Positions 1,137 through 31,954 of a stretch of DNA of 35,705 nucleotides are shown piece after piece. The DNA lies in the IMG/VR virus record IMGVR_UViG_2698536687_000005. One strand, 5' to 3'. Made by a program: the position numbers and the translations under genes. The notes beneath the pieces are model-generated. The model was not told where the DNA came from, made no database searches, and was given only the letters and a program-made list of their open reading frames with translations. The DNA is from a virus (lineage: Duplodnaviria; Heunggongvirae; Uroviricota; Caudoviricetes). The first letter of the stretch is position 1, and every line of letters starts with the position of its first letter.

Positions 1137-2813
1137 CTAAGCAACATGCAGTTCATCGTTGGCGGAAGTTGCTGCTTTGCGCTCTTGCTCAATCGCCAGT
1201 GACTCTCTATATTCTTTCGCTTCCGCAAACATTGTCCATTGTGCGTTGATGTTCATATCTTCAATAACAGACTTAATTTCTTTAATATTTACGTTGAAAA
1301 ACTCTTTTCGTGAGTTAATTTTATTGACCTGTTTTTCGTTGAAGACTTTATGCAGATGATTTTCTAATGATGGTGCATCATCACTATAAATCATCGCATG
1401 AACATCGAACGAAAAAGGAACACTAGCATCACCGAGTTCACGAACACGATCAAGTGGTTCAAGGCGGCGTGTCATTCCAATTTTATATACATCTTCGCCA
1501 AATGAGCCAATATTACTAATTATATAAACGTGGCCTGATCTAGTTTGTTGAGCCATAGAAATAGCTCGTTGGTTTTTAGCTTCAGCTTCTTCATATTTTA
1601 ACTGTAGTTCAGCTATTTTTTGCTCTAAAGCTAAGCGTTGTTCTTCATTTGCAAGCATAAGCTCTTTTGTTGCTTTATTTATAGCTTGCTGAATAGCTTT
1701 CTCTTCTTTTTCAGCTTCTTTTATCGCTTTTTCATACTCCCTACGAGCTCTTTCCTCTTCACGAAGTTGTTCTTTAATCCTTCTTTGCTCTTCTTTTTCT
1801 TCGAGCATAATTTCATTAACTGCAACTCCCCATTTTAGCTCGTTGAGTCGAGCTTGAAGATAGATGTCACTTATTTTTGCGGACCTAAAGGCAGAACCAT
1901 TGTAATTTACAAGTTGAAACGCATCTTTTATCTCTTGGGAAAGTTTTCCAAAATTGTTGTGTTTGACTTTTGATAAAATACTGTCAACTCTTCCATTGAA
2001 GGCATCTAAAACAAAGTTGATAGCAGTATTACGCCTGTTTTGTTCAACATAATCACACGAAGCAGCTTTATTAGTTTTTATTAATGATTTTGTTAACTCC
2101 CTGGCTTTTTGTAATTCCTTACCTGCATCTGTAAACTCATAATTTTCTGCCAATTCATCGAGAACGCTACGGTTAGGGATGATCCATTCATCACCATAAC
2201 CTTCAATTTTATTTTTCATTGATTTGGCAACTGCTTCATATTTTTCTGCAAACTCTTTAGCTTCATATGCTGAACCAGCAATCTCTTTTGCTCTTTCTTC
2301 TGCATCGGAAATAATTTTCACTGCATTGTCATTAGCATTTGAGATCAGCTCATTTGCTTTACTATTGGCATTATCAAGACGTTCTTTAGCTTTCAGGCGT
2401 GCATCGCGAGCGTCTTTAGTAATTGCTATAGCTTCGCTATTAGCGTTGCTTATTTTTATCTGAGCTTGATAATTTGCTTCGTTTACTGTCTTAGCAGCCT
2501 TTATTTGGGCTTCTTCTATTTTTTGCCTGGCTATTGAGTCTGCATTTTTTATCTTATTCTCTGCTTCCATCACTGCGCTGTGCAATTCTACGTATTGCCA
2601 TAATGGCGCAGCTCGTCCTTCAAGCTCTGATAGATCTCGTACAGTCTGTGCTAATTCTTCTTGATTTTCTTTCAGTTGGTTGGAAAGGGCTATGTTGTTA
2701 TCTGTCAAGGTATTTATAGCCGCTTTATGTTTTTTGCTTTGCTTAAATAATATTACAGCTAGAATGGGGGTGAGAAATGCTAATAAGAATATAACGATGG
2801 AAAATGAATTCAT
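1137..2813 (-). CDS. Membrane-anchored coiled-coil protein with DUF4041-like region and C-terminal T5orf172/MUG113 (GIY-YIG-like) domain; candidate defence/abortive-infection cargo
   Basis: 558-aa ORF. N-terminal hydrophobic helix (SIVIFLLAFLTPILAVILF), about 300 aa of K/E/A-rich heptad-like sequence, C-terminal 'HVYIISNIGSFGEDVYKIGMTRRLEPLDRVRELG...FSFDVHAMI...LENHLHKVF' matching the T5orf172 signature. AT-rich relative to backbone. AAGGA RBS 8 nt upstream. Confidence 0.75.
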   Translation of the reverse strand: MNSFSIVIFLLAFLTPILAVILFKQSKKHKAAINTLTDNNIALSNQLKENQEELAQTVRDLSELEGRAAPLWQYVELHSAVMEAENKIKNADSIARQKIEEAQIKAAKTVNEANYQAQIKISNANSEAIAITKDARDARLKAKERLDNANSKANELISNANDNAVKIISDAEERAKEIAGSAYEAKEFAEKYEAVAKSMKNKIEGYGDEWIIPNRSVLDELAENYEFTDAGKELQKARELTKSLIKTNKAASCDYVEQNRRNTAINFVLDAFNGRVDSILSKVKHNNFGKLSQEIKDAFQLVNYNGSAFRSAKISDIYLQARLNELKWGVAVNEIMLEEKEEQRRIKEQLREEERARREYEKAIKEAEKEEKAIQQAINKATKELMLANEEQRLALEQKIAELQLKYEEAEAKNQRAISMAQQTRSGHVYIISNIGSFGEDVYKIGMTRRLEPLDRVRELGDASVPFSFDVHAMIYSDDAPSLENHLHKVFNEKQVNKINSRKEFFNVNIKEIKSVIEDMNINAQWTMFAEAKEYRESLAIEQERKAATSANDELHVA

Positions 2814-2833: not shown

Positions 2834-3430
2834 TTAATTTGAAACTATTGTACTTCTTATACAAGCAACTACTTCAATATCAGAAAATGCACATTCAAAG
2901 CTATTCTCTGTACTTGTAATTTTAATCATACCTTTTGGAAGCTTTGTGATTTTTCGAATGGAATAGGTTCCGTCGATGTTGATTAACCAGTGCCCATCAA
3001 GTACTTCAGAAAATTTTTGATCACAAATGTATGTGACGAGCCCATCCTGAATAACAATTGGTGATGAAAGATTTGCAGGAAGAAATGATGAATCGAAGAC
3101 ATATGAACCATCTTCAATCATTTTGCCTGCGGTAAGGCGAAACTTGGCAAGCTCTTCTGTAGCTGCTGTCAGCGAGCTTTGCTTAAGGCCTTGCCCGGTG
3201 GTTAACCATTTCAGTGAGGTTCCTGTTTCAAGAGCACATTGGATTATCCAGTCTGCAGGAAACGTATCCCGCAAATACCTGTTCGCCAGAGTGCTTTTTG
3301 ATACTTCCAAGTGATCAGCTAAAGCCTGTCGTGTCGTAAAGCCATAAGCTTCGACTAATCGCTCAATCGCAGCCTTACCACCTTTATTGGGATTTATTTT
3401 GATCTCATTTGGGTACTTTGATGTTGACAT
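2834..3430 (-). CDS. cI: Immunity repressor, phage 186 CI-like (N-terminal HTH, no S24 autoprotease motif seen)
   Basis: 198-aa ORF; N-terminal HTH-like 'FTTRQALADHLEVSKSTLANRY'; no G-x-S-M/Lys dyad; positioned between int-side cargo and apl, opposite orientation to apl. Confidence 0.75.
   Translation of the reverse strand: MSTSKYPNEIKINPNKGGKAAIERLVEAYGFTTRQALADHLEVSKSTLANRYLRDTFPADWIIQCALETGTSLKWLTTGQGLKQSSLTAATEELAKFRLTAGKMIEDGSYVFDSSFLPANLSSPIVIQDGLVTYICDQKFSEVLDGHWLINIDGTYSIRKITKLPKGMIKITSTENSFECAFSDIEVVACIRSTIVSN
3406..3418. repeat. 13-bp direct repeat CATTTGGGTACTT, copy 1 (inside cI N-terminal codons)
   Basis: Exact copy of the motif at 3465-3477; a degenerate third copy CATTTTGGGATAC lies at 3751-3763. 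Confidence 0.5.
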
Positions 3431-3525: not shown

Positions 3526-3747
3526 ATGACCCCTAACATTTCAATAACTCTGAATACGCCACATGTCACAATTGAGCGTTATAGCGAACTTACTGGTCTT
3601 TCTATCGACACCATCAACGATATGCTGGCTGATGGTCGCATCCCTCGCCATCGCCTTCGGAAAGACAAGAAAAGAGAAAAGGTAATGATCAACCTTGCTG
3701 CTCTTACCGTTGATGCACTTACTGATTGCAATGTTGTATTCAACTAG
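3526..3747 (+). CDS. apl: Apl/Cox-like excisionase and transcriptional regulator
   Basis: 73-aa product from ATG at 3526 with AGGAG RBS at 3511-3515; HTH-like '[26 protein letters not shown]'; first gene of rightward early operon. Confidence 0.7.
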
Positions 3748-3779
3748 TTCCATTTTGGGATACATCAGGGGTGTCGACT

Positions 3780-4289
3780 ATGTTTGATTACCAAGTTTCC
3801 AAACATCCACATTTTGACGAAGCCTGTCGTGCATTCGCACTGCGCCACAACCTGGTGCAACTGGCAGAACGTGCAGGCATGAATGTACAGATTCTGCGGA
3901 ACAAGCTGAACCCAGCTCAACCTCATTTATTAACCGCACCAGAAATCTGGTTGCTTACCGATCTGACTGAAGATTCAACGCTGGTAGATGGCTTTCTGGC
4001 ACAGATTCACTGCCTGCCATGTGTACCGATTAATGAGGTGGCAAAAGAGAAACTGCCGCATTATGTCATGAGTGCAACCGCAGAGATCGGGCGTGTTGCT
4101 GCAGGTGCGGTATCCGGCGATGTAAAAACCAGTGCAGGTCGTCGTGATGCTATCAGCAGCATTAACTCTGTAACACGGCTGATGGCGCTGGCCGCTGTTT
4201 CATTGCAGGCCCGTTTACAGGCTAATCCTGCGATGGCGAGTGCAGTTGATACCGTTACTGGCCTCGGTGCTTCATTCGGTTTGCTGTGA
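3780..4289 (+). CDS. cII: Phage 186 CII-like lysogeny-establishment regulator
   Basis: 169-aa product from ATG at 3780 (the track ORF is N-terminally extended); sequence '[24 protein letters not shown]...' and length match the 186 CII family as recalled. Confidence 0.7.
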
Positions 4290-5103: not shown

Positions 5104-5330
5104 TGGCTGATGCAATGGATCTCGTACAGCAGCGCGTTGAAGAAGAACGCCAGCGCCATATCCGTGCTGCCCGTGCCAAAACGCCGGGCGTGTCCCGCGT
5201 GCTTTGCGTTGAGTGTGAAGCGCCAATTCCGCCAGCACGCCGCCGTGCCATTCCGGGTGTGCAGCTTTGCATTACATGTCAGGAAATCGCAGAGCTGAAA
5301 GGCAAACATTACAACGGAGGTGCTGTATGA
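5103..5330 (+). CDS. TraR/DksA-family C4 zinc-finger protein (P2 orf82-like)
   Basis: 75 aa; C-x-x-C ... C-x-x-C ('CVECEAP ... CITCQE') in TraR/DksA arrangement; start overlaps previous stop (TAATGG). Confidence 0.7.
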   Translation: MADAMDLVQQRVEEERQRHIRAARAKTPGVSRVLCVECEAPIPPARRRAIPGVQLCITCQEIAELKGKHYNGGAV

Positions 5331-6184
5331 GCACCATCTTGAAATGGGCGGGAAATAAAACCGCCGTAATGTCCGAACTGAAAAAACATCTTCCTGCTGG
5401 TCCGCGACTAGTTGAACCTTTCGCGGGTTCCTGTGCTGTGATGATGGAGACGGATTATCCCTGCTATCTGGTTGCGGATATTAATCCTGATTTAATCAAC
5501 CTCTATAAAAAGGTTGCCGCTGATTGTGAATCGTTTATATCTCGCGCCAAAGTTTTATTTGAGATCGCAAACAGGGAGGTGGCTTATTACAACATAAGGC
5601 AGGAGTTTAATTACTCAACTGAAATTACTGATTTCATGAAAGCGGTATATTTCCTGTATCTCAATCGTCACGGTTACCGTGGGTTATGTCGCTATAACAA
5701 GAGCGGGCATTTCAACATTCCCTACGGTAATTATAAAAATCCGTATTTCCCTGAAAAAGAAATTCGCGCTTTTGCAGAAAAAGCCCAGCGAGCAACGTTT
5801 ATCTGCGCCAGCTTTGATGAAACGCTGGCGATGTTGAAGGCGGGGGATGTGGTGTATTGCGATCCGCCTTATGACGGTACGTTTTCCGGCTATCACGCTG
5901 ACGGCTTTACTGAAGATGACCAGTATCACCTGGCATCCGTTCTTGAACATCGGTCATCAGAAGGACATCCGGTCATTGTTTCTAACAGTGACACATCCCT
6001 GATCCGTTCGCTGTATCGCAATTTTACTCACCACTATATCAAGGTAAAACGCAGCATCGGCGTAGCAGCTGGTGAGAGTAAATCAGCAACAGAAATCATT
6101 GCTGTTTCCGGGCCGCGCTGCTGGGTGGGATTTGATTATTCGCGTGGCGTGGATAGTTCTGCCGTGTACGGAGTACGTGCATGA
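5327..6184 (+). CDS. dam: DNA adenine methyltransferase, Dam family (orphan, phage-encoded)
   Basis: 285-aa product from ATG at 5327 with GGAGG RBS; Dam-like N-terminus 'KWAGNK' and catalytic 'DPPY' motif ('[10 protein letters not shown]'). Confidence 0.8.
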
Positions 6185-8595
6185 GCCATGCCGATATGAG
6201 CAACTGCTGCGGCTTTAACGAGGCTGCCGCATCGTTCTCATGGAACAGCCCGAAAAAGGCCATTAACCCTTATCTGGACCCGGCGGAAGTTGCGCCGGTT
6301 TCTGCGCTTTCAAACCTGATCACTCTGTACGCTGCCGATAACGAGCAGGAACAACTGCGCCGCGAGGCACTGAGTGATCAGGTCTGGGAGCGTTATTTCT
6401 TTAATGAATCCCGTGATCCTGTCCAACGCGAAATAGAGCAGGATAAGCTCATTAGCCGGGCAAAGTTGGCGCATGAGCAGCAGCGTTTTAACCCGGACAT
6501 GGTCATTCTGGCAGACGTCAGCGCCCAGCCCTCCCATATCAGCAAGCCGCTGATGCAACGTATTGAATACTTCAGCAGCCTGGGCAGGCCAAAGGCTTAT
6601 TCCCGCTATTTACGTGAGACGATTAAGCCATGTCTGGAACGACTGGAGCATGTACGCGACAGCCAGCTATCTGCATCTTTTCGTTTTATGGCAAGCCATG
6701 TAGGGCTGGACGGCCTGCTGATTCTGCCTGAAATGAGTCAGGATCAGGTGAAACGCCTGTCTACCCTTGTCGCTGCGCATATGAGCATGTGCCTTGATGC
6801 AGCTTGTGGTGATTTGTATGCCACCGATGACGTTAAGCCAGAAGAAATCCGCAAGACATGGGAAAAGGTGGCAGCGGAAACCCTGCGTCTGGATGTCATC
6901 CCGCCTGCGTTTGAGCAACTCCGTCGGAAAAGAAACCGCCGTAAACCCGTGCCCTATGAACTCATTCCGGGTTCGCTGGCGCGTATGTTGTGCGCCGACT
7001 GGTGGTACCGGAAATTATGGAAAATGCGTTGCGAATGGCGGGAAGAGCAGTTGCGTGCTGTCTGCCTGGTCAGCAAAAAAGCATCTCCCTATGTCAGCTA
7101 TGAAGCCGTGATGCATAAACGTGAGCAGCGCCGCAAGTCACTGGAGTTTTTCCGTTCTCATGAACTGGTGAACGAAGAGGGCGACACGCTGGATATGGAA
7201 GACGTGGTAAACGCCAGCAGCAGCAACCCGGCGCACCGCCGCAATGAGATGATGGCCTGTGTTAAAGGTCTGGAGCTTATCGCGGAAATGCGCGGTGACT
7301 GCGCCGTTTTCTACACCATTACCTGTCCGTCACGTTTCCATTCCACGCTCAATAACGGCAGACCAAACCCAACCTGGACAAATGCGACGGTAAGACAAAG
7401 CAGCGATTATCTGGTCGGCATGTTTGCTGCATTTCGTAAGGCGATGCACAAAGCCGGGTTGCGCTGGTATGGCGTGCGGGTGGCTGAGCCGCATCATGAC
7501 GGTACAGTTCACTGGCACCTGTTGTGTTTCATGCGCAAAAAAGACCGCCGCGCCATTACTGCATTGTTGCGTAAGTTTGCCATCCGTGAAGACCGCGAGG
7601 AACTGGGTAATAACACTGGTCCACGCTTTAAATCTGAGCTGATAAACCCGCGCAAAGGAACGCCGACAAGCTACATCGCGAAATACATCAGTAAGAACAT
7701 TGACGGGCGTGGTCTGGCTGGCGAGATCAGCAAGGAAACGGGTAAATCCCTGCGTGATAACGCTGAATACGTTAATGCCTGGGCGTCTCTGCATCGTGTT
7801 CAGCAATTCCGCTTCTTTGGTATTCCGGGACGTCAGGCTTACCGTGAACTTCGCTTGCTGGCTGGTCAGGCGGCAAGGCAACAGGGTGACAAAAAAGCAG
7901 GTGCGCCGGTACTGGATAACCCGCGTCTTGATGCCATTCTGGCTGCTGCTGATGCTGGTTGTTTTGCCACCTACATCATGAAGCAGGGCGGCGTACTGGT
8001 TCCCCGCAAATATCACCTCATCAGAACCGCTTATGAAATCAACGAAGAGCCAACCGCCTATGGCGATCACGGTATTCGTATTTATGGCATCTGGTCACCC
8101 ATTGCAGAGGGCAAGATCTGCACTCATGCAGTGAAGTGGAAAATGGTTCGTAAGGCCGTTGACGTTCAGGAGGCGGCAGCCGACCAGGGCGCTTGCGCCC
8201 CTTGGACTCGTGGCAATAACTGTCCCCTTGCTGAAAATTTGAACCAACATGAGAAAGATGAATCAGCAGATGGGGATACCAGAACGGACATTACCTGCAT
8301 GGATGACAAGGAATTGCACGATTACCTGCACAGTATGAGCAAAAAAGAGCGCCGGGAACTGGCAGCAAGATTGCGCCTGGTTAAACCGAAACGGCGTAAA
8401 GACTACAAACAGCGAATTACAGAGTATCAGCGTCAGCAGCTCGTCTATGAACTGAAGTCCAGAGGATTTGATGGCAACGAGAAAGAGGTCGATTTGCTCC
8501 TTTGCGGTGGCAGTATTCCGTCAGGAGCAGGCCTGCGTATCTTCTATCGGAACCAGCGTTTGCAGGAAGATGATAAGTGGCGGAACCTGTATTAA
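6181..8595 (+). CDS. A: Replication initiation endonuclease, P2 gpA family (rolling-circle)
   Basis: 804-aa ORF; P2 A-like; Y-x-x-K rolling-circle motif '[12 protein letters not shown]'; start overlaps dam stop (ATGA). Confidence 0.85.
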
Positions 8596-8687
8596 TCACA
8601 CGGGTTAACAATTCGTGCTCTTAATAATACCAGGCATATCAGGCTGATGAACGTAAAAAAACGTTTTACATCAGTAAGATTATTATA

Positions 8688-8707
8688 TACTGTAAATATA
8701 AACAGTG
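8688..8707 (+). promoter_or_regulatory. Consensus LexA (SOS) box TACTGTAAATATAAACAGTG
   Basis: CTGT-N8-ACAG with AT-rich spacer at 8690-8705, about 45 bp upstream of the small ORF starting at 8749. Confidence 0.6.
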
Positions 8708-8748
8708 GTTATATGTACAGTATTGCGTATGGTGTTATAGGAGGAAAG

Positions 8749-8937
8749 ATGCAGGACTATTTTTTGGAGTCTTTGAAGCTCCAGCGCATTGATTTTTTTC
8801 TTAAGCTTGTAGCGGCTAGTGAGTGTAGTGATGAAGAGAAGGGGCTAGCTCTGCAGTGGGTTTCTGAATTGACTGATGAGTTGATGGCGAAAATTCGAAG
8901 CCATGAATACAGTAGGTCGATGGATGTAATCAGTTGA
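8749..8937 (+). CDS. Small SOS-box-associated protein; candidate Tum-like antirepressor or other SOS-induced cargo
   Basis: 62-aa product from ATG at 8749 with AGGAGGA RBS at 8739-8745; AT-rich; downstream of LexA box and upstream of a terminator hairpin. Confidence 0.45.
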   Translation: MQDYFLESLKLQRIDFFLKLVAASECSDEEKGLALQWVSELTDELMAKIRSHEYSRSMDVIS

Positions 8938-8970: not shown

Positions 8971-8996
8971 AAAGGGGCATTAAGCCCCTTTCTCAT
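8971..8996 (+). terminator. Intrinsic terminator hairpin between the small ORF and the convergent lipoprotein gene
   Basis: Stem AAAGGGGC/GCCCCTTT (8971-8978, 8984-8991) with 5-nt loop, followed by T-rich TCTC. Confidence 0.5.
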
Positions 8997-9004
8997 AAGT
9001 TGAT

Positions 9005-9304
9005 TTAGTTGTTACCCAAAGAGCCGGCCATGGCTGCATATTTAATTTCTTCGCTGGGTATTTCAGGATGTAGTTGAATTTGCCTGATGATATAGCCAGG
9101 AACTTCTTCACTCCACAGTTTCGCCGCGTCCTTACAGACCTTATACGCGAAGTCTCTATTCTCAAAGGCATAGGATTTTCCGTATGCATATTGCTGACAG
9201 GCATGAACATAAGCTCCGAAGTCGCCGTCTTTATCTGGCAAAGCACATCCAGCTAAGGCTATGATGATTGCTACTAACGTAAAGGAGAAAGTTATACGTT
9301 TCAT
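9005..9304 (-). CDS. Small lipoprotein, unknown function (cargo)
   Basis: 99 aa; signal peptide with lipobox 'LAGC' (MKRITFSFTLVAIIIALAGC); AT-rich. Confidence 0.65.
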   Translation of the reverse strand: MKRITFSFTLVAIIIALAGCALPDKDGDFGAYVHACQQYAYGKSYAFENRDFAYKVCKDAAKLWSEEVPGYIIRQIQLHPEIPSEEIKYAAMAGSLGNN

Positions 9305-9360
9305 GGTCTCTTTCTAAGCGTTTAGCATTATTTAACTAAGGGGTATCTGCCGTGATTTGG

Positions 9361-9389
9361 TAGTCCCTGATATATATTCTCAGGGACTA
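9361..9389. promoter_or_regulatory. Inverted repeat TAGTCCCTG-N11-CAGGGACTA between the two lipoprotein genes
   Basis: 9-bp perfect arms around AT-rich spacer ATATATATTCT; candidate operator or terminator/promoter element. Confidence 0.4.
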
Positions 9390-9412
9390 TGCTGAAGTAG
9401 CTTTAATTTTGA

Positions 9413-10219
9413 TTATTTAGAAAGGTACTTATCTCTAAGTTGATTCAGTCTGTCAGCATCGCGTTCTGAAAACTCGGCGTCACCATAGATCGATTTCCCA
9501 TCTGCGTCTTCAAGGCCAATGACTGTGACGGTAAATATAGCATCAGCCGGAACTTTAAGTTTTCCCCAATCAGAGTATCTATTAGGGGCTAATTTCCAGT
9601 TGGCTTTCTCACCTGGTTCCAGACCTCCAGAAATTTTATAGTTGAAGACGTCAGAGAACCAAGGGACGCTTCTTCCTGGGCTGGCAATAACTCCTTTGAA
9701 GAATACTCTGGCAACCGCTTTGTCTGTTCCGTTTTCAACGCTAATATCCAGAATTGGCTGATCATTGCCGTAATCCTCTTTCTGGAAATAAAAACGGGAA
9801 CGTTCGACCTTGAAGGCTTTCATTTTTTCCGCAGCCTGTGTTGCAGAGGTTTGTTTGGCTTCCAGTTCTTTTATTTCTTGCAGAGCCTGTTCTTTCTCTC
9901 TCTTCTCACGCTCAAGGCGAATAGTTTGTGCGTAATTTATAACCTCATCACCAGTTTTACCTTCCAACGCTGACTTAATTTTTGTTTCGTAGACGTCCCC
10001 AGAAGACGTTCCAGCCTGCATTAGCTCTCTCATGTTGATTTGGCTAAAGGCAACGACTTTAACTGCATCATCAAACTGAGCTTTTTTATCTGCAGGTAAG
10101 GACTCTCTTACTTTTTGAATGGACTCTTTCATCGACTGATCGCTTGATGCATCGATCTTCGGTTTGTCACAAGCAGTAAGCAGCAGAGCAAAAGCAATTA
10201 CGCCAGTTAATTTCTTCAT
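9413..10219 (-). CDS. Lipoprotein with central coiled-coil and C-terminal domain of unknown function (cargo)
   Basis: 268 aa from ATG at 10219 (track ORF extends to 10291); signal peptide 'MKKLTGVIAFALLLTAC' with lipobox; charged coiled-coil segment 'EREKREKEQALQEIKELEAKQ'. Confidence 0.65.
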   Translation of the reverse strand: MKKLTGVIAFALLLTACDKPKIDASSDQSMKESIQKVRESLPADKKAQFDDAVKVVAFSQINMRELMQAGTSSGDVYETKIKSALEGKTGDEVINYAQTIRLEREKREKEQALQEIKELEAKQTSATQAAEKMKAFKVERSRFYFQKEDYGNDQPILDISVENGTDKAVARVFFKGVIASPGRSVPWFSDVFNYKISGGLEPGEKANWKLAPNRYSDWGKLKVPADAIFTVTVIGLEDADGKSIYGDAEFSERDADRLNQLRDKYLSK

Positions 10220-10247
10220 ATCCCTATCCCAATCGTAAAAAAACAAG

Positions 10248-10268
10248 GCTAATCCTAACAGGATTAGC
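10248..10268. promoter_or_regulatory. Palindrome GCTAATCC-N5-GGATTAGC upstream of the 268-aa lipoprotein gene
   Basis: 8-bp perfect arms, 29-51 bp upstream of start codon at 10219; candidate operator. Confidence 0.4.
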
Positions 10269-10740
10269 GGGCATGACAAACTCATAGCCATATAGGTGTG
10301 CTGTATAAATTAGCGGGATGAGAAAGCCTGCACAGACCCTCATGTTGAAACTTGATTTTAGCTCAAAAGAGCTGACACTAAATAACTGCGCGGAATAATG
10401 CTCCACTTTCGGTTAGCCCTTGGCCCTTGCTGGGTAAGGCGTGGGGCCGTTTTCTTCGCCTGATCCTGCTGTATCTGGCCTACAGTATGTTGTCCTTACG
10501 CGACATGCCACATGTCAGTAAACGGCAGGTGTAGCAGTATTAGACGCAGCTATTTAGTGTGTATTAAGCTGGCTCATATTTATGACTGGTTTCAAGGTTT
10601 GACCGATTTCATGTCATGCATGTCTATGCTGCATGAGTTCGCATGATCGTTTGAGGATCGGTTTGGCTAAGACATGCCAGAACTGGCGGGCTTTTGCTCA
10701 TGTCATGCAGGTGCATGAAAACTACTACATAAAGCGGGCA

Positions 10741-10869: not shown

Positions 10870-11568
10870 ATGGTTATGTTAGTGGATGACTGTCCACGAT
10901 GTGGATCACAAAAAATAGCGTTTGATGTTAATGGGCTGAATTGCACTAGGGTTTACAATGCATTGGGCGGGGGTAAAACATACGAGTACGAGGTCTATTG
11001 TGTTTGCCGAGAGTGTCATAAAACGACAATGTTTCTTTGCAGACCTTTAACGAAAAATAAAACTTTAGATGGCTATAATTGGGAAAGTGGAATATTCGGC
11101 TTAAAGGAAGTTGCAGAGGTTGTTAGGCCTATATCACCAGCAGACTTAGCAGTAGAGGAGCCACCAGAGTTCTTACCTGAGCATATCAATAGTGCATATG
11201 AGGAAGGGGCGAAATGTTTGGCTATAGGTTGTTATAATGCAGCAGCAACCATGTTTAGGCTTTGCCTTGATTATGCCACAAAAGGACTTCTTCCTGATGG
11301 GGAGCAAGGGCCTGCGCAAAAAATAAGGAGAAGCCTAGGGTTAAGAATGGAGTGGTTATTTGATAATCATCTACTGCCTGAAGCTTTAAGGGAACTAGCT
11401 GAATGCGTTAAAGATGACGGAAATGATGGAGCGCATGAAGGTATTTTGGATAAAGCTGCTGCTGAGGATCTTGAAGATTTTACCTATCTTTTTTTAGAAC
11501 GGCTTTACACTGAACCTCAACGCCTTATCGAAGCCAAGACAAGGCGTGAACAAAGAAGAAACAAATAA
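10870..11568 (+). CDS. Zn-ribbon + DUF4145 (HEPN-like) protein; candidate single-gene defence/Abi cargo
   Basis: 232 aa; N-terminal 'CPRCGS ... CVCRECH' four-Cys arrangement; C-terminal 'YEEGAKCLAIGCYNAAATMFRLCLDYATK ... NDGAHEG' resembling DUF4145; AT-rich promoter-like upstream region; GGGAGAAG RBS. Confidence 0.6.
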   Translation: MVMLVDDCPRCGSQKIAFDVNGLNCTRVYNALGGGKTYEYEVYCVCRECHKTTMFLCRPLTKNKTLDGYNWESGIFGLKEVAEVVRPISPADLAVEEPPEFLPEHINSAYEEGAKCLAIGCYNAAATMFRLCLDYATKGLLPDGEQGPAQKIRRSLGLRMEWLFDNHLLPEALRELAECVKDDGNDGAHEGILDKAAAEDLEDFTYLFLERLYTEPQRLIEAKTRREQRRNK

Positions 11569-11576
11569 GTTCGGAA

Positions 11577-12611
11577 TTATTCTTCTGAAAGAATATAGGG
11601 CGTAAATTTAATCACTTCTTCGCCCAGCCAGTCGTTCAGCTCTTGTAGCCTTTTTTGCAAGGGCGTTAATTCATTACGTACAAATACGCGACTGGCTTTC
11701 TCCACATCCCCAAACCCCCCGACATTATTAGGCATTATCCCCATCATTTGCGGCGGCACGCGGTGTGCAGCCATCATGTCGTCACGGCTCACGTTTTTGA
11801 TATTCAGAAACTCATCCTTCGCTGCGACTTCTGACAACGGGATAATCTGAAGCCCGTCCTTTTTGCCGTTAGGCGAGTACATAAACAGATTGCGGAAGTT
11901 GCCAGGGCCTTTGGCGCTTTTCATCGCGTTGCGGAGGTTGTTCACGTCCTCCTGGTTCTGCGCAGCGTCGGTCATGTACATGATGAAGCCAGCATGACTG
12001 CCGTTAATGTAATACTTTCGACGGAACAGCGTGGCAGACTCATTGAGCAGGGCGGACGGAATGGCAGAAAGATAGCCGGGCAGGCCGTAGATCTCCTGGT
12101 TAATGTCCGGTTCCATCAGATGAAAAATGCTGCCTTTCGTGAACTGATACGGCTGGGTTGTCATACCGAATTGCAGAAACCAGTAGGTATCCAGGTCTAA
12201 CCCGCGTCGGGTGTATTTTGCCAGAGCAGGCTCAAGGGCGATAACTTCACCGAAGCGGTTCGTGCGTTTCTCCAGGTAGGCGTTACCAAATACCAGATAG
12301 TCCTGCACAAAACGTGAAAAAGCCTGCTGGCTGAGCAGCGGGTGGGGGATGTAGGTACTGGTCAGAATGTTGCATTTCACCGCAATTGGTGAACTGTGAT
12401 GCACGGCGGCGCGGAAGGTGCGCGCCAGTCCGTCAAAGCTTACTGGCGGCTCATACCAGCGATCTGTCTGTACGCATTCCACATAGTCCAGTAGTTCGCG
12501 GCGGTCCAGAACAGGAACGGGATCACCGAAGCTGAATGCTTCGGCTGTAGTTTGACTTTTATGCTGGATCTGGTTCGTCGACGCAGCGCGGTTCTTCTTA
12601 CTCTTTCCCAT
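11577..12611 (-). CDS. Q: Portal protein (P2 gpQ)
   Basis: 344 aa from ATG at 12611 (track ORF begins one codon earlier at TTG); P2 Q-like size and position; start overlaps P stop. Confidence 0.88.
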   Translation of the reverse strand: MGKSKKNRAASTNQIQHKSQTTAEAFSFGDPVPVLDRRELLDYVECVQTDRWYEPPVSFDGLARTFRAAVHHSSPIAVKCNILTSTYIPHPLLSQQAFSRFVQDYLVFGNAYLEKRTNRFGEVIALEPALAKYTRRGLDLDTYWFLQFGMTTQPYQFTKGSIFHLMEPDINQEIYGLPGYLSAIPSALLNESATLFRRKYYINGSHAGFIMYMTDAAQNQEDVNNLRNAMKSAKGPGNFRNLFMYSPNGKKDGLQIIPLSEVAAKDEFLNIKNVSRDDMMAAHRVPPQMMGIMPNNVGGFGDVEKASRVFVRNELTPLQKRLQELNDWLGEEVIKFTPYILSEE

Positions 12612-14377
12612 CAAAAAATCTCCACAATATTACTGGTATTGGCGGACTCGCCCTGCAGTGGTTCGTTAAACAGTGCGTGCATTGTTGCCCAGGCCAGATC
12701 GGCGTGGCTGGCTTCTTCGCTGCGGCTGGCTTCATAGGTCGGGCGGTTGCCACTGGCGGTGGTTGCGCGACGGATTGCCATGAATGACTGCGCAATGTCG
12801 GTGTGCCCGGCGTCAAACTCCAGACGGCGGTGGCTGATAATGTCGTAGGCCTTGAGTACCAGGGCGTTTTTAACGTTGGGGTTGTAGACAAACTCCCGGA
12901 CGGCAGGAAAGAACGCTTTCACGTTCTCGTAAACCCCGTGACCAACGCCGGTTGAGTCGATACCGATATAAGTCACGTTGTACTGTTCGGTAAGTTTTTT
13001 GATGGCGTCAGCCTGGGCGCGGAAGTCCATCCCGCGCCACTGGTGACGCTCAAGAATGCGGAACTTACCACCCGGCACGGCTGGCGGTGCCACCACCACG
13101 CATCCAGCGCTGTCGCCGTTTTGCGTACCTTTTGCCGGGTCATAACCGATCCACACTTCGCGCCAGCCAAACGGGCGCAGCGCCAGTGCATGAAAGTCGG
13201 TCCAGACTTCCCAACTGTCCACCATGCACGCCTGCAGCTCGCTGAGCGGAAACACGGACGCGAGATCGTCCACAAACTCGCACATCAGCAGGTTCTGGTA
13301 TTCGTCTGGGCTGTACTCCATGCGTAGCTGGTCGAGGTCGAACAGGTTACAGCCGCCGCGCACCGCATCTTCCACGGTGACTATCTGGCGGTATTGCCCG
13401 TCTGCGCACAGCAGGCCGGGGGCCAGATTGCTGTGGGACAGGTCGATGTCCACCTTATCGGCTTTGTTGCGCCCACGGTTGAACAGCGCACCGGACCAGA
13501 ACGGATAAGCACTGTGTGTCAGACTGGATGGCGTGGAAAAATAGGTTTGTCGCCATTTTTTGTGAATAGCCATACCGGAAGCCACTTTGCGCAGCTCCTG
13601 GAATTTCGGTATCCAGAAATATTCATCCAGATACAGGTTGCCGTGGTAACTCTGGGCCGTGCGGGCATTGGTGCCGAGGAAGTAAAGCGTGGCCCCGTTA
13701 GGAAGCACCATCGGATCGCCTTTCAGCTCCACCTCCACTTCTTTGGCAAAGTCGATGATGTACTGTTTAAAGACGTGGGCCTGAGCCTTGCTGGCAGAAA
13801 GGAAAATCTGGTTACGCCCGGTCAGCAGGGCGTCAATCAGGGCTTCACGGGCAAAGTAAAAGGTCGCGCCGATCTGGCGTGACTTCAGCAGGTTGCGGAT
13901 GCGGTTGGTTTTTCCGGCTTCCCACCAGTGGCGCTGGTAGTTGAACATAGAGGAATGGAAGATTTCTTCCAGTTTCTCAATCTGTTCATCGGTGAAAACA
14001 TTCTTTTCCGGCTGACGACGTGGGCCTTTGTTGCGGTTGGCAACGTTAGGGTTTAAGTCGGCTTCGTTGCCGCCATTGTTAAACTTGCCGATCCGCGCGT
14101 GGCGCTCAGACTGGCGTGCCAGCAGGTCAATTTCTTTGAAATCTTTCCCTTCTTTGTGCTCCTTCATAATGAGCTGGCAGTAGCGTGCGGCGGTGGTGAG
14201 CTGCATCTGATCCAGCGGCCCATAGTCACCCCACTTGTCGCGTTTTTTCCAGCTGTGAACGGTTGCAACTTTCTCGCCCAGCATTTCAGCAATGCGGGCG
14301 ACGCGGTATCCCTGAAAGTACAGCAGCATGGCCTGCCGACGGGGATCGAGATCTGCGGGTGTCAGTGTGGTGTTCAT
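12611..14377 (-). CDS. P: Terminase large (ATPase) subunit (P2 gpP)
   Basis: 588 aa; P2 gpP size (about 590 aa) and position. Confidence 0.88.
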   Translation of the reverse strand: MNTTLTPADLDPRRQAMLLYFQGYRVARIAEMLGEKVATVHSWKKRDKWGDYGPLDQMQLTTAARYCQLIMKEHKEGKDFKEIDLLARQSERHARIGKFNNGGNEADLNPNVANRNKGPRRQPEKNVFTDEQIEKLEEIFHSSMFNYQRHWWEAGKTNRIRNLLKSRQIGATFYFAREALIDALLTGRNQIFLSASKAQAHVFKQYIIDFAKEVEVELKGDPMVLPNGATLYFLGTNARTAQSYHGNLYLDEYFWIPKFQELRKVASGMAIHKKWRQTYFSTPSSLTHSAYPFWSGALFNRGRNKADKVDIDLSHSNLAPGLLCADGQYRQIVTVEDAVRGGCNLFDLDQLRMEYSPDEYQNLLMCEFVDDLASVFPLSELQACMVDSWEVWTDFHALALRPFGWREVWIGYDPAKGTQNGDSAGCVVVAPPAVPGGKFRILERHQWRGMDFRAQADAIKKLTEQYNVTYIGIDSTGVGHGVYENVKAFFPAVREFVYNPNVKNALVLKAYDIISHRRLEFDAGHTDIAQSFMAIRRATTASGNRPTYEASRSEEASHADLAWATMHALFNEPLQGESANTSNIVEIF

Positions 14378-30375: not shown

Positions 30376-30857
30376 TGATGGTGCTGGGATTGTACGTGTT
30401 TATGCTGCGCACCGTTCCGTATGAGGAACTGCAGTATCAACGCAGCTGGCGACATGCGGCAAACAGCCGGGTTAACCGACGCCCGTCAACGCAGTTTCTG
30501 GGACCGGATAACGACATGCTGACGCTTTCTGGCGTTCTTATGCCGGAGATAACAGGCGGCAGGCTGTCGTTGCTGGCACTGGAGCAGATGGCAGAACAGG
30601 GGAAAGCATGGCCCCTGATTGAAGGCAGCGGCACGATTTACGGCATGTATGTGATTGAGGGACTGAATCAGACTAAAACGGAGTTTTTCCGCGACGGTAT
30701 GCCGCGCCGGATTGAGTTCACCCTGTCGCTCAAACGAGTGGATGAATCCCTGTCCGATATGTTCGGTGATCTCAGTGCGCAACTGAATAATCTGCAGGAA
30801 ACGGCAACATCTGCTTTAAGCGATATCAGTAAAACGGTGGGAGGGCTGCTGTCGTGA
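30372..30857 (+). CDS. U: Tail protein U
   Basis: 161 aa; position and size as P2 gpU. Confidence 0.85.
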   Translation: MMMVLGLYVFMLRTVPYEELQYQRSWRHAANSRVNRRPSTQFLGPDNDMLTLSGVLMPEITGGRLSLLALEQMAEQGKAWPLIEGSGTIYGMYVIEGLNQTKTEFFRDGMPRRIEFTLSLKRVDESLSDMFGDLSAQLNNLQETATSALSDISKTVGGLLS

Positions 30858-31954
30858 ATTTCAGCTCTGAACTGCTTAACAAGGGCAACAAAACTCCCGC
30901 ATTCAGCATCAGTATTGAGGGCAGGGATATCACTACTGTGCTGGACAACCGCCTGATGGGGCTTACGCTGACGGATAACCGGGGCTTTGAAGCGGACCAG
31001 CTTGATCTGGAGCTGGACGATGCTGACGGAAAAATCGTGCTGCCGCGCCGTGGTGCGGTCATTACGCTGGCGCTGGGCTGGAAGGGGCAGCCGCTTTTCC
31101 CGAAAGGGGCATTCACGGTGGACGAGATTGAACACACTGGCGCACCGGACCGCCTGACTATCCGGGCGCGAAGTGCTGATTTTCGGGAAACGCTGAATAC
31201 CCGCCGTGAAAAGTCGTGGCACAAGACCACGGTCGGGGAAGTGGTGAAGGAAATAGCCGCGCGGCACAAACTGAAGATGGCATTGGGTAAAGACCTGTCA
31301 GATAAACCCGTGGAACATATAGACCAGACCAATGAGAGTGACGGCAGTTTTCTGATGCGGCTGGCGCGCCAGTACGGTGCTATTGCGTCGGTGAAAAATG
31401 GCAATCTGTTATTCATCCGGCAGGGACAGGGTAAAAGCGCCAGCGGTAAACCACTACCGGTTATCACTATCACACGTAAGGACGGCGACAGTCACCGCTT
31501 TACCCTGGCAGATCGCGGAGCCTACACGGGCGTAATTGCCAGCTGGTTGCATACCCGCGAACCCGCGAAGAATGAAAGCACCACGGTGAAGCGTAAGCGC
31601 AGGACTAAGAAGCAGAAGAAAGAGCCGGAAGCGAAGCAGGGCGATTACCTGGTGGGTACAGATGAAAACGTGCTGGTACTTAATCGCACCTATGCCAACC
31701 GGAGCAACGCCGAACGGGCGGCGAAAATGCAGTGGGAACGCCTGCAACGCGGCGTTGCGTCATTCTCGCTACAACTGGCAGAAGGTCGGGCAGATCTCTA
31801 CACGGAAATGCCAGTGAAAGTCAGTGGCTTTAAACAGCCGATAGATGATGCGGAATGGACCATTACGACTCTGACGCATACCGTCAGCCCCGATAACGGT
31901 TTTACAACCAGTCTGGAGCTTGAAGTGAGGATTGATGATTTCGAAATGGAATGA
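30854..31954 (+). CDS. D: Tail protein D (late control D family)
   Basis: 366 aa; GTG start overlapping U stop; P2 gpD-like. Confidence 0.85.
   Translation: MNFSSELLNKGNKTPAFSISIEGRDITTVLDNRLMGLTLTDNRGFEADQLDLELDDADGKIVLPRRGAVITLALGWKGQPLFPKGAFTVDEIEHTGAPDRLTIRARSADFRETLNTRREKSWHKTTVGEVVKEIAARHKLKMALGKDLSDKPVEHIDQTNESDGSFLMRLARQYGAIASVKNGNLLFIRQGQGKSASGKPLPVITITRKDGDSHRFTLADRGAYTGVIASWLHTREPAKNESTTVKRKRRTKKQKKEPEAKQGDYLVGTDENVLVLNRTYANRSNAERAAKMQWERLQRGVASFSLQLAEGRADLYTEMPVKVSGFKQPIDDAEWTITTLTHTVSPDNGFTTSLELEVRIDDFEME

What the first reader, a model, noticed from the sequence alone, without database searches (positions are those of the whole stretch)
9005..10291. Two co-oriented lipoprotein genes with palindromic upstream elements in the tin/old hotspot position
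In P2 the interval between gene A and cos carries the anti-phage genes tin and old. Here it carries two AT-rich minus-strand lipoprotein genes (99 aa, lipobox LAGC; 268 aa, lipobox LTAC, with a coiled-coil segment). Each is preceded by a perfect inverted repeat (TAGTCCCTG-N11-CAGGGACTA at 9361-9389; GCTAATCC-N5-GGATTAGC at 10248-10268). Small prophage lipoproteins elsewhere act in superinfection exclusion (Cor, Llp), but I recognise neither protein, so this pair may be an undescribed envelope-level exclusion or defence module.
Basis: partly seen in the sequence, partly recalled or inferred. Interest (0 to 1): 0.65.

Follow-up and report, generated by a model that had tools for sequence, protein, structure and literature searches.

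The report
Two-lipoprotein cargo operon in P2 hotspot
A P2/186-like prophage carries, in its known cargo hotspot, a small operon for two exported lipoproteins of unknown function; the pair is real and conserved, is already listed untested in a published catalogue, and nothing yet shows it defends against phages.

Summary
Window 9005-9304(-) and 9413-10219(-) encode two lipoproteins in the gpA-cos-gpQ hotspot of a P2/186-like prophage. Both palindromes exist and are non-random.

The 268-aa protein belongs to Pfam DUF6694, a widespread family at about 50% identity across phyla. The 99-aa protein belongs to a tiny family restricted to Enterobacteriaceae mobile elements. The exact pair is "system #103" (31 occurrences) in Rousset et al. 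2022 Table S5B, and its sequences are absent from their table of tested systems.

The pair is conserved as one block, with saturated synonymous sites, omega 0.06-0.08 and a 108-nt spacer kept in the P2-like and phage-plasmid copies. It occurs in P2-like prophages, in SSU5-like phage-plasmids and in a third element. Each gene is nevertheless found more often without the other.

Both palindromes travel with the DUF6694 cassette. The upstream one overlaps a conserved extended -10 promoter. The intergenic one is a conserved sense-strand RNA hairpin.

Neither protein matches a known defence, Cor, Bor or spanin family, and the fold searches were uninformative.

Best reading: a self-contained moron operon of two periplasmic lipoproteins acting at the envelope. 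Phage exclusion is plausible but unproven.

The parts
9413..10219 (-). 268-aa DUF6694-family lipoprotein. Lipobox LTA|C17; +2/+3 residues are Asp-Lys. Predicted layout: lipid anchor, helical domain (27-85), long helix (90-133), beta-sandwich (136-246), C-terminal helix.
   Evidence: Pfam PF20404 E 3.5e-22 and phrog_7468. At least 354 homologous clusters at about 50% identity over the full length. AF2 pLDDT 85. Lipobox rule met. omega 0.064 against the Citrobacter copy.
9005..9304 (-). 99-aa lipoprotein. Lipobox LAG|C20; +2 residue is Ala, the outer-membrane type. The mature part is about 80 residues, predicted as a four-helix bundle. Invariant C-A-[FL]-P-D-K-D-G-D motif and invariant Cys36/Cys57.
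   Evidence: phrog_7666, no Pfam match. Only 14 clusters, all in Enterobacteriaceae elements. An exhaustive profile search of 1.84 billion representatives finds nothing beyond this family. Alignment A1. AF2 pLDDT 73. omega 0.079.
10252..10279 (-). Promoter-like site for the operon: -35 TTGTCA, 16-nt spacer ending in TGT (extended -10), -10 TAGGAT.
   Evidence: Consensus scan. The -35, the TGT-TAGGAT and the 16-nt spacing are kept in the roughly 77%-identical phage-plasmid copies, although the spacer sequence itself has diverged. No expression data.
10248..10268 (-). Perfect 9-bp palindrome GCTAATCCT-GTT-AGGATTAGC, followed on the minus strand by CTTGTTTTTTT. It overlaps the -10 hexamer and has the shape of an intrinsic terminator for transcripts arriving from upstream.
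   Evidence: Fold -12.5 kcal/mol, z -4.0. Its left arm is not conserved in the phage-plasmid lineage. No other copy in the window.
9361..9389 (-). Intercistronic stem-loop, 24 nt after the DUF6694 stop codon and 57 nt before the 99-aa ATG. No U-tract follows it.
   Evidence: Fold -16.1 kcal/mol, z -4.6. A 12-pair stem is kept in five lineages. The substitutions are U-A/U.G/C-G, G-C/G.U and A-U/G.U, which pair only in the sense (minus-strand) RNA. It travels with the DUF6694-only plasmid cassettes.
8971..8991 (.). GC-rich hairpin AAAGGGGC-N5-GCCCCTTT between the convergent 62-aa gene (8749-8937, +) and the 99-aa gene. Probable bidirectional terminator that ends the operon.
   Evidence: Conserved in all pair-bearing lineages examined.

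Best explanation
The region is a self-contained cargo ('moron') operon in the P2-family gpA-cos hotspot.

Proposed layout:
- A sigma-70 promoter with an extended -10 (10279-10252) drives, on the minus strand, the DUF6694-family lipoprotein gene.
- A conserved intercistronic RNA hairpin follows. It probably protects or partly terminates the upstream message and so sets the ratio of the two products.
- The 99-aa lipoprotein gene comes next, then a GC-rich terminator.

The proteins:
- Both are exported and lipid-anchored in the periplasm.
- The small one carries an outer-membrane-type sorting residue (+2 Ala) and probably one disulfide.
- The large one carries +2 Asp, a possible inner-membrane retention signal. 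It holds a beta-sandwich at the end of a long helical stalk.
- The two proteins are evolutionarily independent and each can function without the other. Their adjacency reflects an old two-gene block shared by P2-like prophages and SSU5-like phage-plasmids.

Function (inferred, not shown): because neither protein can reach the cytoplasm, any benefit must arise at the envelope. The likeliest role is modifying or shielding an envelope component. That could exclude incoming phages at adsorption or DNA entry, or protect against other envelope-directed attack, in cells carrying the element.

Shown here: gene structure, lipoboxes, purifying selection, cassette boundaries, conservation of the promoter and hairpin, and distribution.
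Inferred: transcription pattern, membrane sorting and biological role.
For: - Gene structure and lipoboxes.
- Low GC and opposite orientation to flanking phage genes.
- Promoter-like site conserved at about 77% overall identity, hairpin conserved with strand-specific wobble changes, terminator hairpin conserved.
- Strong purifying selection on both genes despite saturated synonymous sites (omega 0.064 and 0.079, dS about 2).
- The block, with its 108-nt spacer, is present in 20 of 5426 complete E. coli genomes, always in the P2-like hotspot. It is also present with the same spacer in Citrobacter/Enterobacter phage-plasmids. The two genes are also adjacent, 135 nt apart, in a third, integrase-linked contig.
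- Independence of the two genes. DUF6694 occurs alone at >99% nucleotide identity on three E. coli plasmids, in four unrelated phages and in chromosomes of several genera. The 99-aa gene occurs with an unrelated 139-144-aa lipoprotein in 18 of 32 sampled loci and is present in 215 plasmids; it is also found alone or after a SWIM-like protein.
- The DUF6694 gene is broken by IS1 or a frameshift in some copies while the 99-aa gene stays intact.
- Envelope-level phage exclusion is suggested only by context. The hotspot is rich in anti-phage cargo (PMC9122126). In three of the four other phages the DUF6694 gene sits inside the tail-gene module. That resembles the T5 exclusion lipoprotein gene llp, which lies next to the receptor-binding protein gene (PMC9586334).
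- Sorting rule: Asp at +2 followed by certain +3 residues retains a lipoprotein in the inner membrane (PMC9595528).
Against: - The hotspot also carries non-defence cargo such as partition systems and cytolethal distending toxin, so position alone is weak evidence.
- DUF6694 is about 50% identical across distant phyla, and many copies lie between housekeeping genes. That argues against a blocker of one host-specific phage receptor and for a broadly conserved envelope target or a general physiological role.
- Retention of adjacency and spacing across saturated divergence could mean the two proteins do cooperate, which would contradict the 'independent' part of this explanation.
- Promoter, co-transcription and membrane sorting are predictions. 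Whether +3 Lys permits inner-membrane retention was not established here; from memory of the literature it may weaken it.
Confidence: 0.5

Rival explanations
1. The two lipoproteins form an obligate two-component envelope system. The DUF6694 protein would be held in the inner membrane with its helical stalk spanning the periplasm. The 99-aa protein would sit in the outer membrane. Together they would bridge or block the periplasmic route used by incoming phage DNA, as a new kind of superinfection exclusion.
For: - Adjacency, order and the 108-nt spacer persist between the E. coli P2-like and the Citrobacter/Enterobacter phage-plasmid copies, although synonymous sites are saturated.
- A third lineage, at 79% identity, also has a 99-aa homologue downstream.
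- Three of the four DUF6694 lineages at >=76% identity keep the partner.
- The sorting residues differ (Asp+2 against Ala+2), which could place the two proteins in opposite membranes.
- A conserved intercistronic hairpin implies co-transcription.
- Stalk length varies in a homologue: P0061 has a 36-aa insertion.
Against: - Each gene is found far more often without the other. There are at least 354 DUF6694 clusters against 14 clusters for the 99-aa protein.
- DUF6694 occurs alone at >99% identity on plasmids.
- The 99-aa gene occurs with an unrelated upstream lipoprotein in most phage-plasmids, and also alone.
- The DUF6694 gene is inactivated by IS1 or a frameshift while the 99-aa gene stays intact.
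- In the third lineage the 99-aa homologue has lost its lipobox cysteine.
- No complex prediction could be run.
Confidence: 0.15
2. The genes are lysogenic-conversion factors unrelated to phages. They would improve host fitness or virulence, for example through serum or complement resistance as with lambda Bor/Iss or TraT, envelope stress tolerance, or resistance to colicins or type VI effectors.
For: - The same hotspot carries non-defence cargo, including a toxin.
- DUF6694 is widespread in chromosomes of free-living and plant-associated bacteria, outside any phage context.
- The 99-aa gene is carried by about 200 Klebsiella phage-plasmids.
- No defence-family match.
- Small prophage lipoproteins with such roles are known (Bor; own knowledge).
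Against: - No Pfam match to Lambda_Bor, TraT or known immunity families at E<=1.
- DUF6694 recurs inside phage tail modules, a typical site for exclusion genes.
Confidence: 0.3
3. The pair is an accessory lysis device analogous to a two-component spanin, with an inner-membrane coiled-coil protein and a small outer-membrane lipoprotein.
For: There is a superficial resemblance in architecture: a coiled-coil periplasmic protein followed by a small lipoprotein. Rousset's table tagged the pair with the Pfam name Lysis_col.
Against: - The genes lie in the cargo hotspot, on the opposite strand to the late genes, and not in a lysis cassette.
- The DUF6694 protein is itself a lipoprotein, not a type II membrane protein.
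- The 99-aa protein is a folded helical domain rather than a short proline-rich o-spanin.
- No Rz, Rz1 or Lysis_col hit at E<=1 in current Pfam.
- Each gene occurs alone, and also on non-phage plasmids and chromosomes.
Confidence: 0.03
4. The palindromes are protein-binding operators or recombination sites, rather than a promoter-overlapping terminator and an RNA hairpin.
For: - The 21-bp palindrome has 9-bp half-sites with a 3-bp gap and overlaps the -10, the geometry of a dimeric repressor operator.
- Both palindromes sit just inside the ends of the mobile DUF6694 cassette.
Against: - No second copy of either half-site pattern lies in the phage regulatory region or elsewhere, beyond chance.
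- The left arm of the upstream palindrome is not conserved where the promoter elements are.
- The intergenic stem tolerates G.U-compatible changes that would be mismatches in duplex-DNA symmetry or on the other strand.
- Cassette end-points differ between plasmids: 9314 against 9400, and 10271/10273 against 10306.
Confidence: 0.1

Closest known systems
P2-hotspot 'system #103' in Rousset et al. 2022 (Cell Host Microbe; PMC9122126, Table S5B)
   Same: It is the same two proteins. The 99-aa sequence is identical and the larger one differs at one residue (P/T). It is given there as the 292-aa form with the upstream start. The entry records 31 occurrences among 18,150 P2 hotspot loci and a signal peptide in both proteins.
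   Different: That entry is only a catalogue line, with weak Pfam labels (LPAM_1 | Lysis_col). Neither sequence appears in their Table S2 of tested systems. The family assignment, distribution outside P2, cassette boundaries and regulatory elements are worked out here.
Cor (T1, phi80, N15) and Llp (T5) superinfection-exclusion lipoproteins
   Same: Like them, the 99-aa protein is a small phage-borne lipoprotein with an outer-membrane-type sorting residue and two conserved cysteines that could form one disulfide. Llp has 61 mature residues and a Cys11-Cys58 bond, and acts from the periplasmic face of FhuA (PMC9586334). Like llp, which lies next to the T5 receptor-binding gene, DUF6694 genes sit in the tail modules of other phages.
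   Different: - No sequence relationship. The PHROG Cor family matches only the signal peptide of the 268-aa protein (E 0.054) and does not match the 99-aa protein at all.
- The 99-aa mature part is longer (80 residues).
- DUF6694 is four times the size of Cor or Llp and is conserved across phyla that lack a common phage receptor.
- No receptor is known for either protein.
Pfam DUF6694 (PF20404) / NCBI 'DUF6694 family lipoprotein'
   Same: The 268-aa protein matches over nearly the whole model (residues 7-101, 79 bits) and aligns end to end with family members.
   Different: The Pfam model covers only the N-terminal helical domain. The long helix and beta-sandwich are not modelled by any Pfam family. 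The family has no known function, and no paper in the searched library mentions it.
P2 tin and old (the cargo at this position in phage P2)
   Same: They occupy the same genomic slot between gene A and cos, as accessory genes not needed for phage growth.
   Different: By my own knowledge, Old is a cytoplasmic ATPase-nuclease and Tin acts on T-even phage replication. Both work inside the cell. The two proteins here are exported and share no similarity with them, and PADLOC gives no hit.
Lambda Bor / Iss and other moron lipoproteins
   Same: Each is a small lipoprotein gene with its own promoter and terminator, with atypical base composition, inserted between conserved phage genes and presumably expressed in the lysogen.
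   Different: There is no Pfam or structural similarity. No serum-resistance or other phenotype is known for the proteins here.

Membership tests
Bacterial lipoprotein (PROSITE PS51257-type signal) | K/R in the first 7 residues, an uncharged h-region, a lipobox [LIVMFWSTAG]2-[LIVMFYSTAGCQ]-[AGS]-C, and Cys between positions 15 and 35 | tested here: met
   Both proteins match by regular expression: Cys20 (LAG|C) and Cys17 (LTA|C). The lipobox is conserved in both family alignments.
Bacterial lipoprotein (PROSITE PS51257-type signal) | Actual Lgt/LspA/Lnt processing and lipid attachment; membrane localisation | not testable with these tools
   This needs globomycin sensitivity, palmitate labelling and membrane fractionation. 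Only the +2 residues (Ala; Asp-Lys) can be read (rule from PMC9595528).
Pfam DUF6694 (PF20404) | Score above the curated gathering threshold (24.3 bits) | tested here: met
   The 268-aa protein scores 79.2 bits, E 3.5e-22, over residues 7-101 and profile positions 5-101 of 102. The 99-aa protein gives no hit.
Cor superinfection-exclusion lipoproteins (PHROG 1119) | Sequence match to the family profile over the mature protein | tested here: not met
   The only hit is E 0.054, confined to residues 1-20 (signal peptide) of the 268-aa protein. The 99-aa protein gives no hit.
Known anti-phage defence systems (PADLOC-DB v2.0.0) | HMM match of a component protein | tested here: not met
   Neither lipoprotein gives a hit at E<=1. 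In contrast, the prophage's 558-aa protein matches PD-Lambda-1 at 5e-120.
P2-family gpA-gpQ hotspot cargo (Rousset et al. 2022) | Variable genes lying between replication gene A and portal gene Q, next to cos | tested here: met
   A is at 6181-8595, Q at 11577-12614 and cos near 10709. The neighbouring cargo differs between otherwise near-identical prophages. The pair is listed as system #103.
Moron (own promoter and terminator, foreign composition, between conserved phage genes) | Atypical base composition and a flanking terminator | tested here: met
   GC is 0.425 against 0.53-0.55 for the phage genes. A conserved GC hairpin lies at 8971-8991.
Moron (own promoter and terminator, foreign composition, between conserved phage genes) | An autonomous promoter active in the lysogen | tested here: inconclusive
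   A consensus match (TTGTCA-N16-TGT-TAGGAT) is conserved between diverged copies. There are no transcription data.
Two-component spanin (Rz/Rz1; P2 LysB/LysC) | A type II inner-membrane coiled-coil protein plus a short o-spanin lipoprotein, encoded in the lysis cassette; Pfam Rz/Rz1 match | tested here: not met
   The genes are not in a lysis cassette. The large protein is a lipoprotein. There are no Rz, Rz1 or Lysis_col hits.
Lambda Bor / Iss, TraT | Pfam family match | tested here: not met
   No such family appears at E<=1 for either protein.
Obligate two-gene system | Partners co-occur wherever either is found | tested here: not met
   The genes co-occur in three element types. Each is commoner alone or with other partners.

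The most novel reading that the evidence does not exclude
The inner-membrane-retained DUF6694 stalk protein and the outer-membrane 99-aa lipoprotein cooperate, within the enterobacterial subclade that keeps them adjacent, as a trans-periplasmic exclusion device. It would block phage genome delivery or receptor function. This would be a new class of envelope-level superinfection exclusion, carried by P2-like prophages and by phage-plasmids.
Probability: 0.12. Interest if true: 0.65.

Novelty: new member of a known kind. Interest (0 to 1): 0.35.

Why it matters
Most catalogued anti-phage systems act inside the cell. Envelope-level exclusion proteins are few (Cor, Llp, Sie and Imm types) and hard to find by homology.

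This work yields two clean, strongly conserved, separately mobile periplasmic lipoproteins in a validated defence hotspot. One belongs to a large family of unknown function that recurs inside phage tail modules. Defined cassette boundaries and regulatory elements make them cheap, well-posed candidates for plating and adsorption tests.

A positive result would give a function to Pfam DUF6694 and to a gene carried by about 200 Klebsiella phage-plasmid records. A negative result would show that this hotspot also spreads non-defence envelope cargo.

The finding is not a surprise to specialists. The pair is already in a published catalogue, and lipoprotein morons are a familiar theme.

Tried and rejected
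- Sequence searches against solved structures, with single sequences and with profiles, gave only chance-level hits.
- Foldseek against viral structures gave TM-scores below 0.33 to uncharacterised proteins.
- The AlphaFold-database libraries were unavailable.
- An exhaustive profile search for distant relatives of the 99-aa protein found only its own family, plus two tandem-repeat artefacts (P0136, P0137).
- I tested whether the alternative upstream partners (139/144-aa lipoprotein, SWIM-like 168-aa protein) or the small exported neighbours of DUF6694 in other genomes are related to either protein. They are not.
- I looked for further copies of the palindrome half-sites as evidence of an operator family. 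None exceeded chance.
- The spanin idea and the Lysis_col label were rejected on position, topology and lack of Pfam hits.
- Literature searches for DUF6694 and PF20404 found no paper.
- The 2026 NAR paper on P2/P4 hotspots has no supplementary text held, so its machine-learning defence scores for these proteins could not be checked.
Full report
**What the window is.** The window is a P2-family prophage of the 186/Fels-2 type.
- It has an integrase (1-1053, -), a 186-type CI repressor (2834-3430, -), CII (3726-4289), a Dam methylase (5267-6184) and replication gene A (6181-8595, +).
- Further on are portal Q (11577-12614, -), terminase (12611-14377, -) and tail genes up to gpD (30854-31954).
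- Host genes ybjL and ybjM lie at the right end.
- The genome record of phage Cartapus, annotated with a P2-like cos, begins at window position 10709, so cos lies there.
- The finding therefore sits between gene A and cos. This is inside the gpA-gpQ interval that Rousset et al. 2022 defined as the P2 hotspot and that holds tin and old in P2 itself (PMC9122126).

**Checking the observation.** All elements of the observation are present.
- The 99-aa ORF is at 9005-9304(-). The larger ORF is at 9413-10291(-), and its conserved start is the ATG at 10219 (268 aa). RefSeq and every homologue use that start.
- Both proteins meet a PROSITE-type lipoprotein rule, with Cys20 after LAG and Cys17 after LTA.
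- GC content is 0.425, against 0.53-0.55 for neighbouring phage genes.
- The palindromes are perfect and slightly longer than reported. One has 10-nt arms at 9361-9370/9380-9389; the other has 9-nt arms at 10248-10256/10260-10268.
- They are not chance events. The whole 35.7-kb window has only four such perfect hairpins, and two of them flank the 268-aa gene. Only 0.3% of dinucleotide shuffles of the 2.3-kb region give two or more.

**What the proteins are: the 268-aa protein.**
- It is a clear member of Pfam DUF6694 (E 3.5e-22; 79 bits against a threshold of 24.3) and of PHROG 7468.
- It has at least 354 homologous clusters. These align end to end at about 50% identity in Enterobacterales, Pseudomonas, Methylophaga, Desulfobacula and uncultured lineages.
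- AlphaFold2 with a 51-sequence alignment gives a confident model (pLDDT 85). It shows a short linker after the lipid cysteine, a helical domain (27-85), one 44-residue helix (90-133), a beta-sandwich (136-246) and a C-terminal helix.
- One homologue (P0061) has a 36-residue triplicated insertion in the long helix, so stalk length is variable.

**What the proteins are: the 99-aa protein.**
- It has no Pfam family and belongs to PHROG 7666.
- Its family is tiny: 14 clusters, all from Enterobacteriaceae.
- A profile search of 1.84 billion representative proteins found nothing beyond it except two repeat artefacts.
- The mature part is highly conserved, with an invariant C-A-[FL]-P-D-K-D-G-D motif and invariant Cys36 and Cys57. 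The signal peptide varies freely.
- The model is a four-helix bundle of moderate confidence (pLDDT 73).
- Neither protein matches any PADLOC defence model, any NCBIfam above threshold, or any solved structure by sequence. The fold searches give no functional lead.

**Already catalogued.** Rousset et al. 2022 list exactly these two sequences in Table S5B as P2-hotspot system #103. The entry gives the Pfam labels 'LPAM_1 | Lysis_col', 31 occurrences, and a signal peptide in proteins 1 and 2. The sequences occur only in that file and not in Table S2, which lists the tested systems. The main text describes no lipoprotein system. The pair is therefore known as a catalogue entry but appears untested. 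No paper in the searchable library mentions DUF6694 or PF20404.

**Is it a pair? Evidence for linkage.**
- In complete E. coli genomes the two genes occur together in 20 of 5426 genomes, always in this prophage slot.
- The same two-gene block lies in roughly 106-110-kb SSU5-like phage-plasmids of Citrobacter and Enterobacter. It has the same order and the same 108-nt spacer, and sits among replication genes, at about 76% and 73% protein identity.
- Between these two versions synonymous sites are saturated (dS about 2), while omega is 0.064 and 0.079. Both genes are therefore under strong purifying selection and the block is old.
- A third lineage, a 79%-identical DUF6694 gene next to an integrase, also has a recognisable 99-aa homologue downstream. 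There the lipobox cysteine has become tyrosine.

**Is it a pair? Evidence against obligate linkage.**
- The DUF6694 gene alone, at >99% nucleotide identity, sits on three small E. coli plasmids.
- More distant DUF6694 genes stand alone in Pectobacterium, Enterobacter, Methylophaga and Klebsiella chromosomes.
- They also stand alone in four unrelated phages. These are Escherichia phage PHB10 after the tape-measure gene, Pseudomonas phage PseuP_222 between the tail-tip K and I genes, a Pseudomonas phage just before its tail genes, and Marinobacter phage AS1 near its integrase.
- A 77%-identical DUF6694 copy has no 99-aa partner.
- Among 32 loci retrieved with the 99-aa family, 13 have DUF6694 upstream. 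Eighteen have an unrelated 139-144-aa lipoprotein 10 nt upstream, and one has nothing.
- In Salmonella the 99-aa gene follows a SWIM-like cytoplasmic protein at the end of a lambdoid prophage.
- 215 plasmid records, 200 of them Klebsiella, carry the 99-aa gene.
- The DUF6694 gene is split by IS1 in 2 of the 20 E. coli genomes and frameshifted in two viral contigs, while the 99-aa gene stays intact.
- Conclusion: the association is real within one enterobacterial subclade but is not obligate.

**The palindromes and the operon: cassette boundaries.**
- BLAST boundaries show that the plasmid-borne DUF6694 cassette equals window 9314-10273, which includes both palindromes.
- Homology to the Salmonella copy of the 99-aa gene covers only 8991-9332, reaching just 28 nt upstream of its ATG.
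- Both palindromes therefore belong to the DUF6694 unit. In the Klebsiella/Buttiauxella phage-plasmid and Salmonella prophage contexts the 99-aa gene follows another gene after a gap of only 10-30 nt. This suggests it usually relies on an upstream promoter.

**The upstream palindrome.**
- It overlaps a promoter-like site, TTGTCA-N16-(TGT)TAGGAT.
- In the diverged phage-plasmid copies the -35, the extended -10 and the spacing are retained. The left arm of the palindrome is not.
- The promoter is therefore the conserved element.
- In the E. coli version the palindrome plus its T-run also has the form of an intrinsic terminator. This could insulate the operon from transcription arriving from the Q-P side.

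**The intergenic palindrome and the terminator.**
- The intergenic palindrome folds stably (-16.1 kcal/mol, z -4.6).
- It is kept as a 12-pair stem in five lineages. The substitutions are U-A/U.G/C-G, G-C/G.U and A-U/G.U, which preserve pairing only in the sense-strand RNA.
- With so few sequences this is suggestive rather than conclusive.
- No U-tract follows it, so I read it as an intercistronic stabiliser or partial terminator that sets the ratio of the two products.
- A GC-rich hairpin at 8971-8991, conserved in all lineages examined, ends the operon and is shared with the convergent 62-aa gene.
- Neither palindrome half-site recurs in the window above chance, so there is no sign of an operator family.

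**How it most likely works.**
- Both products are exported and lipid-anchored, so they cannot act on phage DNA or replication inside the cell.
- The 99-aa protein has Ala at +2, which in E. coli means transfer to the outer membrane. It has two invariant cysteines that could form a disulfide.
- The DUF6694 protein has Asp at +2 in 25 of the 51 aligned sequences (Asp-Lys in 20, Asp-Gln in 5), and in all the enterobacterial members displayed except Pectobacterium, which has Asn. With suitable +3 residues this is the Lol-avoidance, inner-membrane retention signal (PMC9595528). Whether +3 Lys permits retention was not established here.
- My best reading is a self-contained moron operon whose products modify or shield an envelope component. 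This could exclude incoming phages at adsorption or entry, or protect against another envelope-directed threat. Each protein would be capable of acting alone.
- The exclusion idea rests only on context. The hotspot is rich in anti-phage cargo. DUF6694 genes recur in tail modules, much as llp lies next to the receptor-binding gene of T5 (PMC9586334).
- Against a receptor-specific blocker stands the cross-phylum conservation of DUF6694 and its many non-phage locations.
- A non-phage conversion role, such as serum, colicin, T6SS or stress tolerance, is almost as likely.
- An obligate trans-envelope two-protein device is possible but disfavoured by the distribution data.
- A spanin-like role is very unlikely.

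**Comparison with known systems and novelty.**
- The nearest functional analogues are Cor and Llp, which are small outer-membrane lipoproteins with one disulfide encoded by phages. Membership is excluded by sequence: the Cor profile matches only a signal peptide.
- The nearest formal classification is Pfam DUF6694 for the large protein and none for the small one.
- The pair is a catalogued but uncharacterised entry of the P2 hotspot.
- I rate it a new member of a known kind (prophage moron lipoproteins in a cargo hotspot), not a new kind of system.
- Interest is modest. It is a clean, testable candidate with newly defined boundaries and regulatory elements, but it carries no evidence of function and is unlikely to surprise specialists.

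Noticed in passing
window 1137-2813 (-): A 558-aa protein (GC 0.37) lies between the integrase and the CI repressor. It matches PADLOC PD-Lambda-1 at E 5e-120 and Pfam DUF4041 + T5orf172/MUG113. This is a recognised anti-phage gene in the prophage's second cargo slot.
   Followed up: partly
window 10870-11568 (+): A 232-aa DUF4145 protein (PHROG 1305) lies between cos (about 10709) and portal gene Q. It has a weak PADLOC match to PD-T7-4 (E 1.2e-6, partial). The same gene is present at 99.6% identity in phage Cartapus. In other carriers of the lipoprotein pair, different genes occupy this position.
   Followed up: partly
window 8687-8723: A 37-nt near-palindrome (ATACTGTAAATATAAACA-T-GGTTATATGTACAGTAT) lies 26 nt upstream of the 62-aa ORF 8749-8937 (PHROG 698). 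It contains CTGT-N8-ACAT and so looks like a LexA box. By my own knowledge, 186-type phages keep an SOS-controlled gene (tum) in this position.
   Followed up: no
window 9236-9247 (codons 20-23 onward) and alignment A1: The 99-aa family has an invariant acidic motif C-A-[FL]-P-D-K-D-G-D directly after the lipidated cysteine. It resembles the start of a calcium-binding loop (DKDGD). Cys36 and Cys57 are also invariant.
   Followed up: no
protein P0061 (DUF6694 homologue), alignment A2 columns about 150-185: A triplicated 36-residue insertion (ERQQALDEIKELEQKE-like) lies in the long helix. The stalk length of DUF6694 proteins can therefore vary.
   Followed up: no
L011 6516-9516 (Buttiauxella phage-plasmid): Immediately downstream of the 99-aa gene lies a three-gene block that includes a Peptidase_U49 (Lit-like) protein. 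This phage-plasmid locus therefore also behaves as a variable cargo site that can hold defence-type genes.
   Followed up: no
L066 2964-4546 (E. coli ECONIH4); L040 and L043 (IMG/VR): The DUF6694 gene is split by IS1 in 2 of the 20 complete E. coli genomes. It is frameshifted in two viral contigs. The adjacent 99-aa gene is intact in all of them.
   Followed up: partly
L025 5824-6174 (Pseudomonas phage PseuP_222); L016 8075-8440; L027 4513-4968: In other genomes DUF6694 genes are flanked by other small exported proteins unrelated to the 99-aa family. These are a 116-aa lipoprotein 16 nt downstream in PseuP_222, and signal-peptide proteins in Pectobacterium and Marinobacter phage AS1.
   Followed up: partly
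window 32332-32862 (-) and 32363-32389: An AT-rich 176-aa ORF with no Pfam or PADLOC match lies at the right end of the prophage, next to ybjL. It contains a perfect palindrome with 12-nt arms.
   Followed up: no
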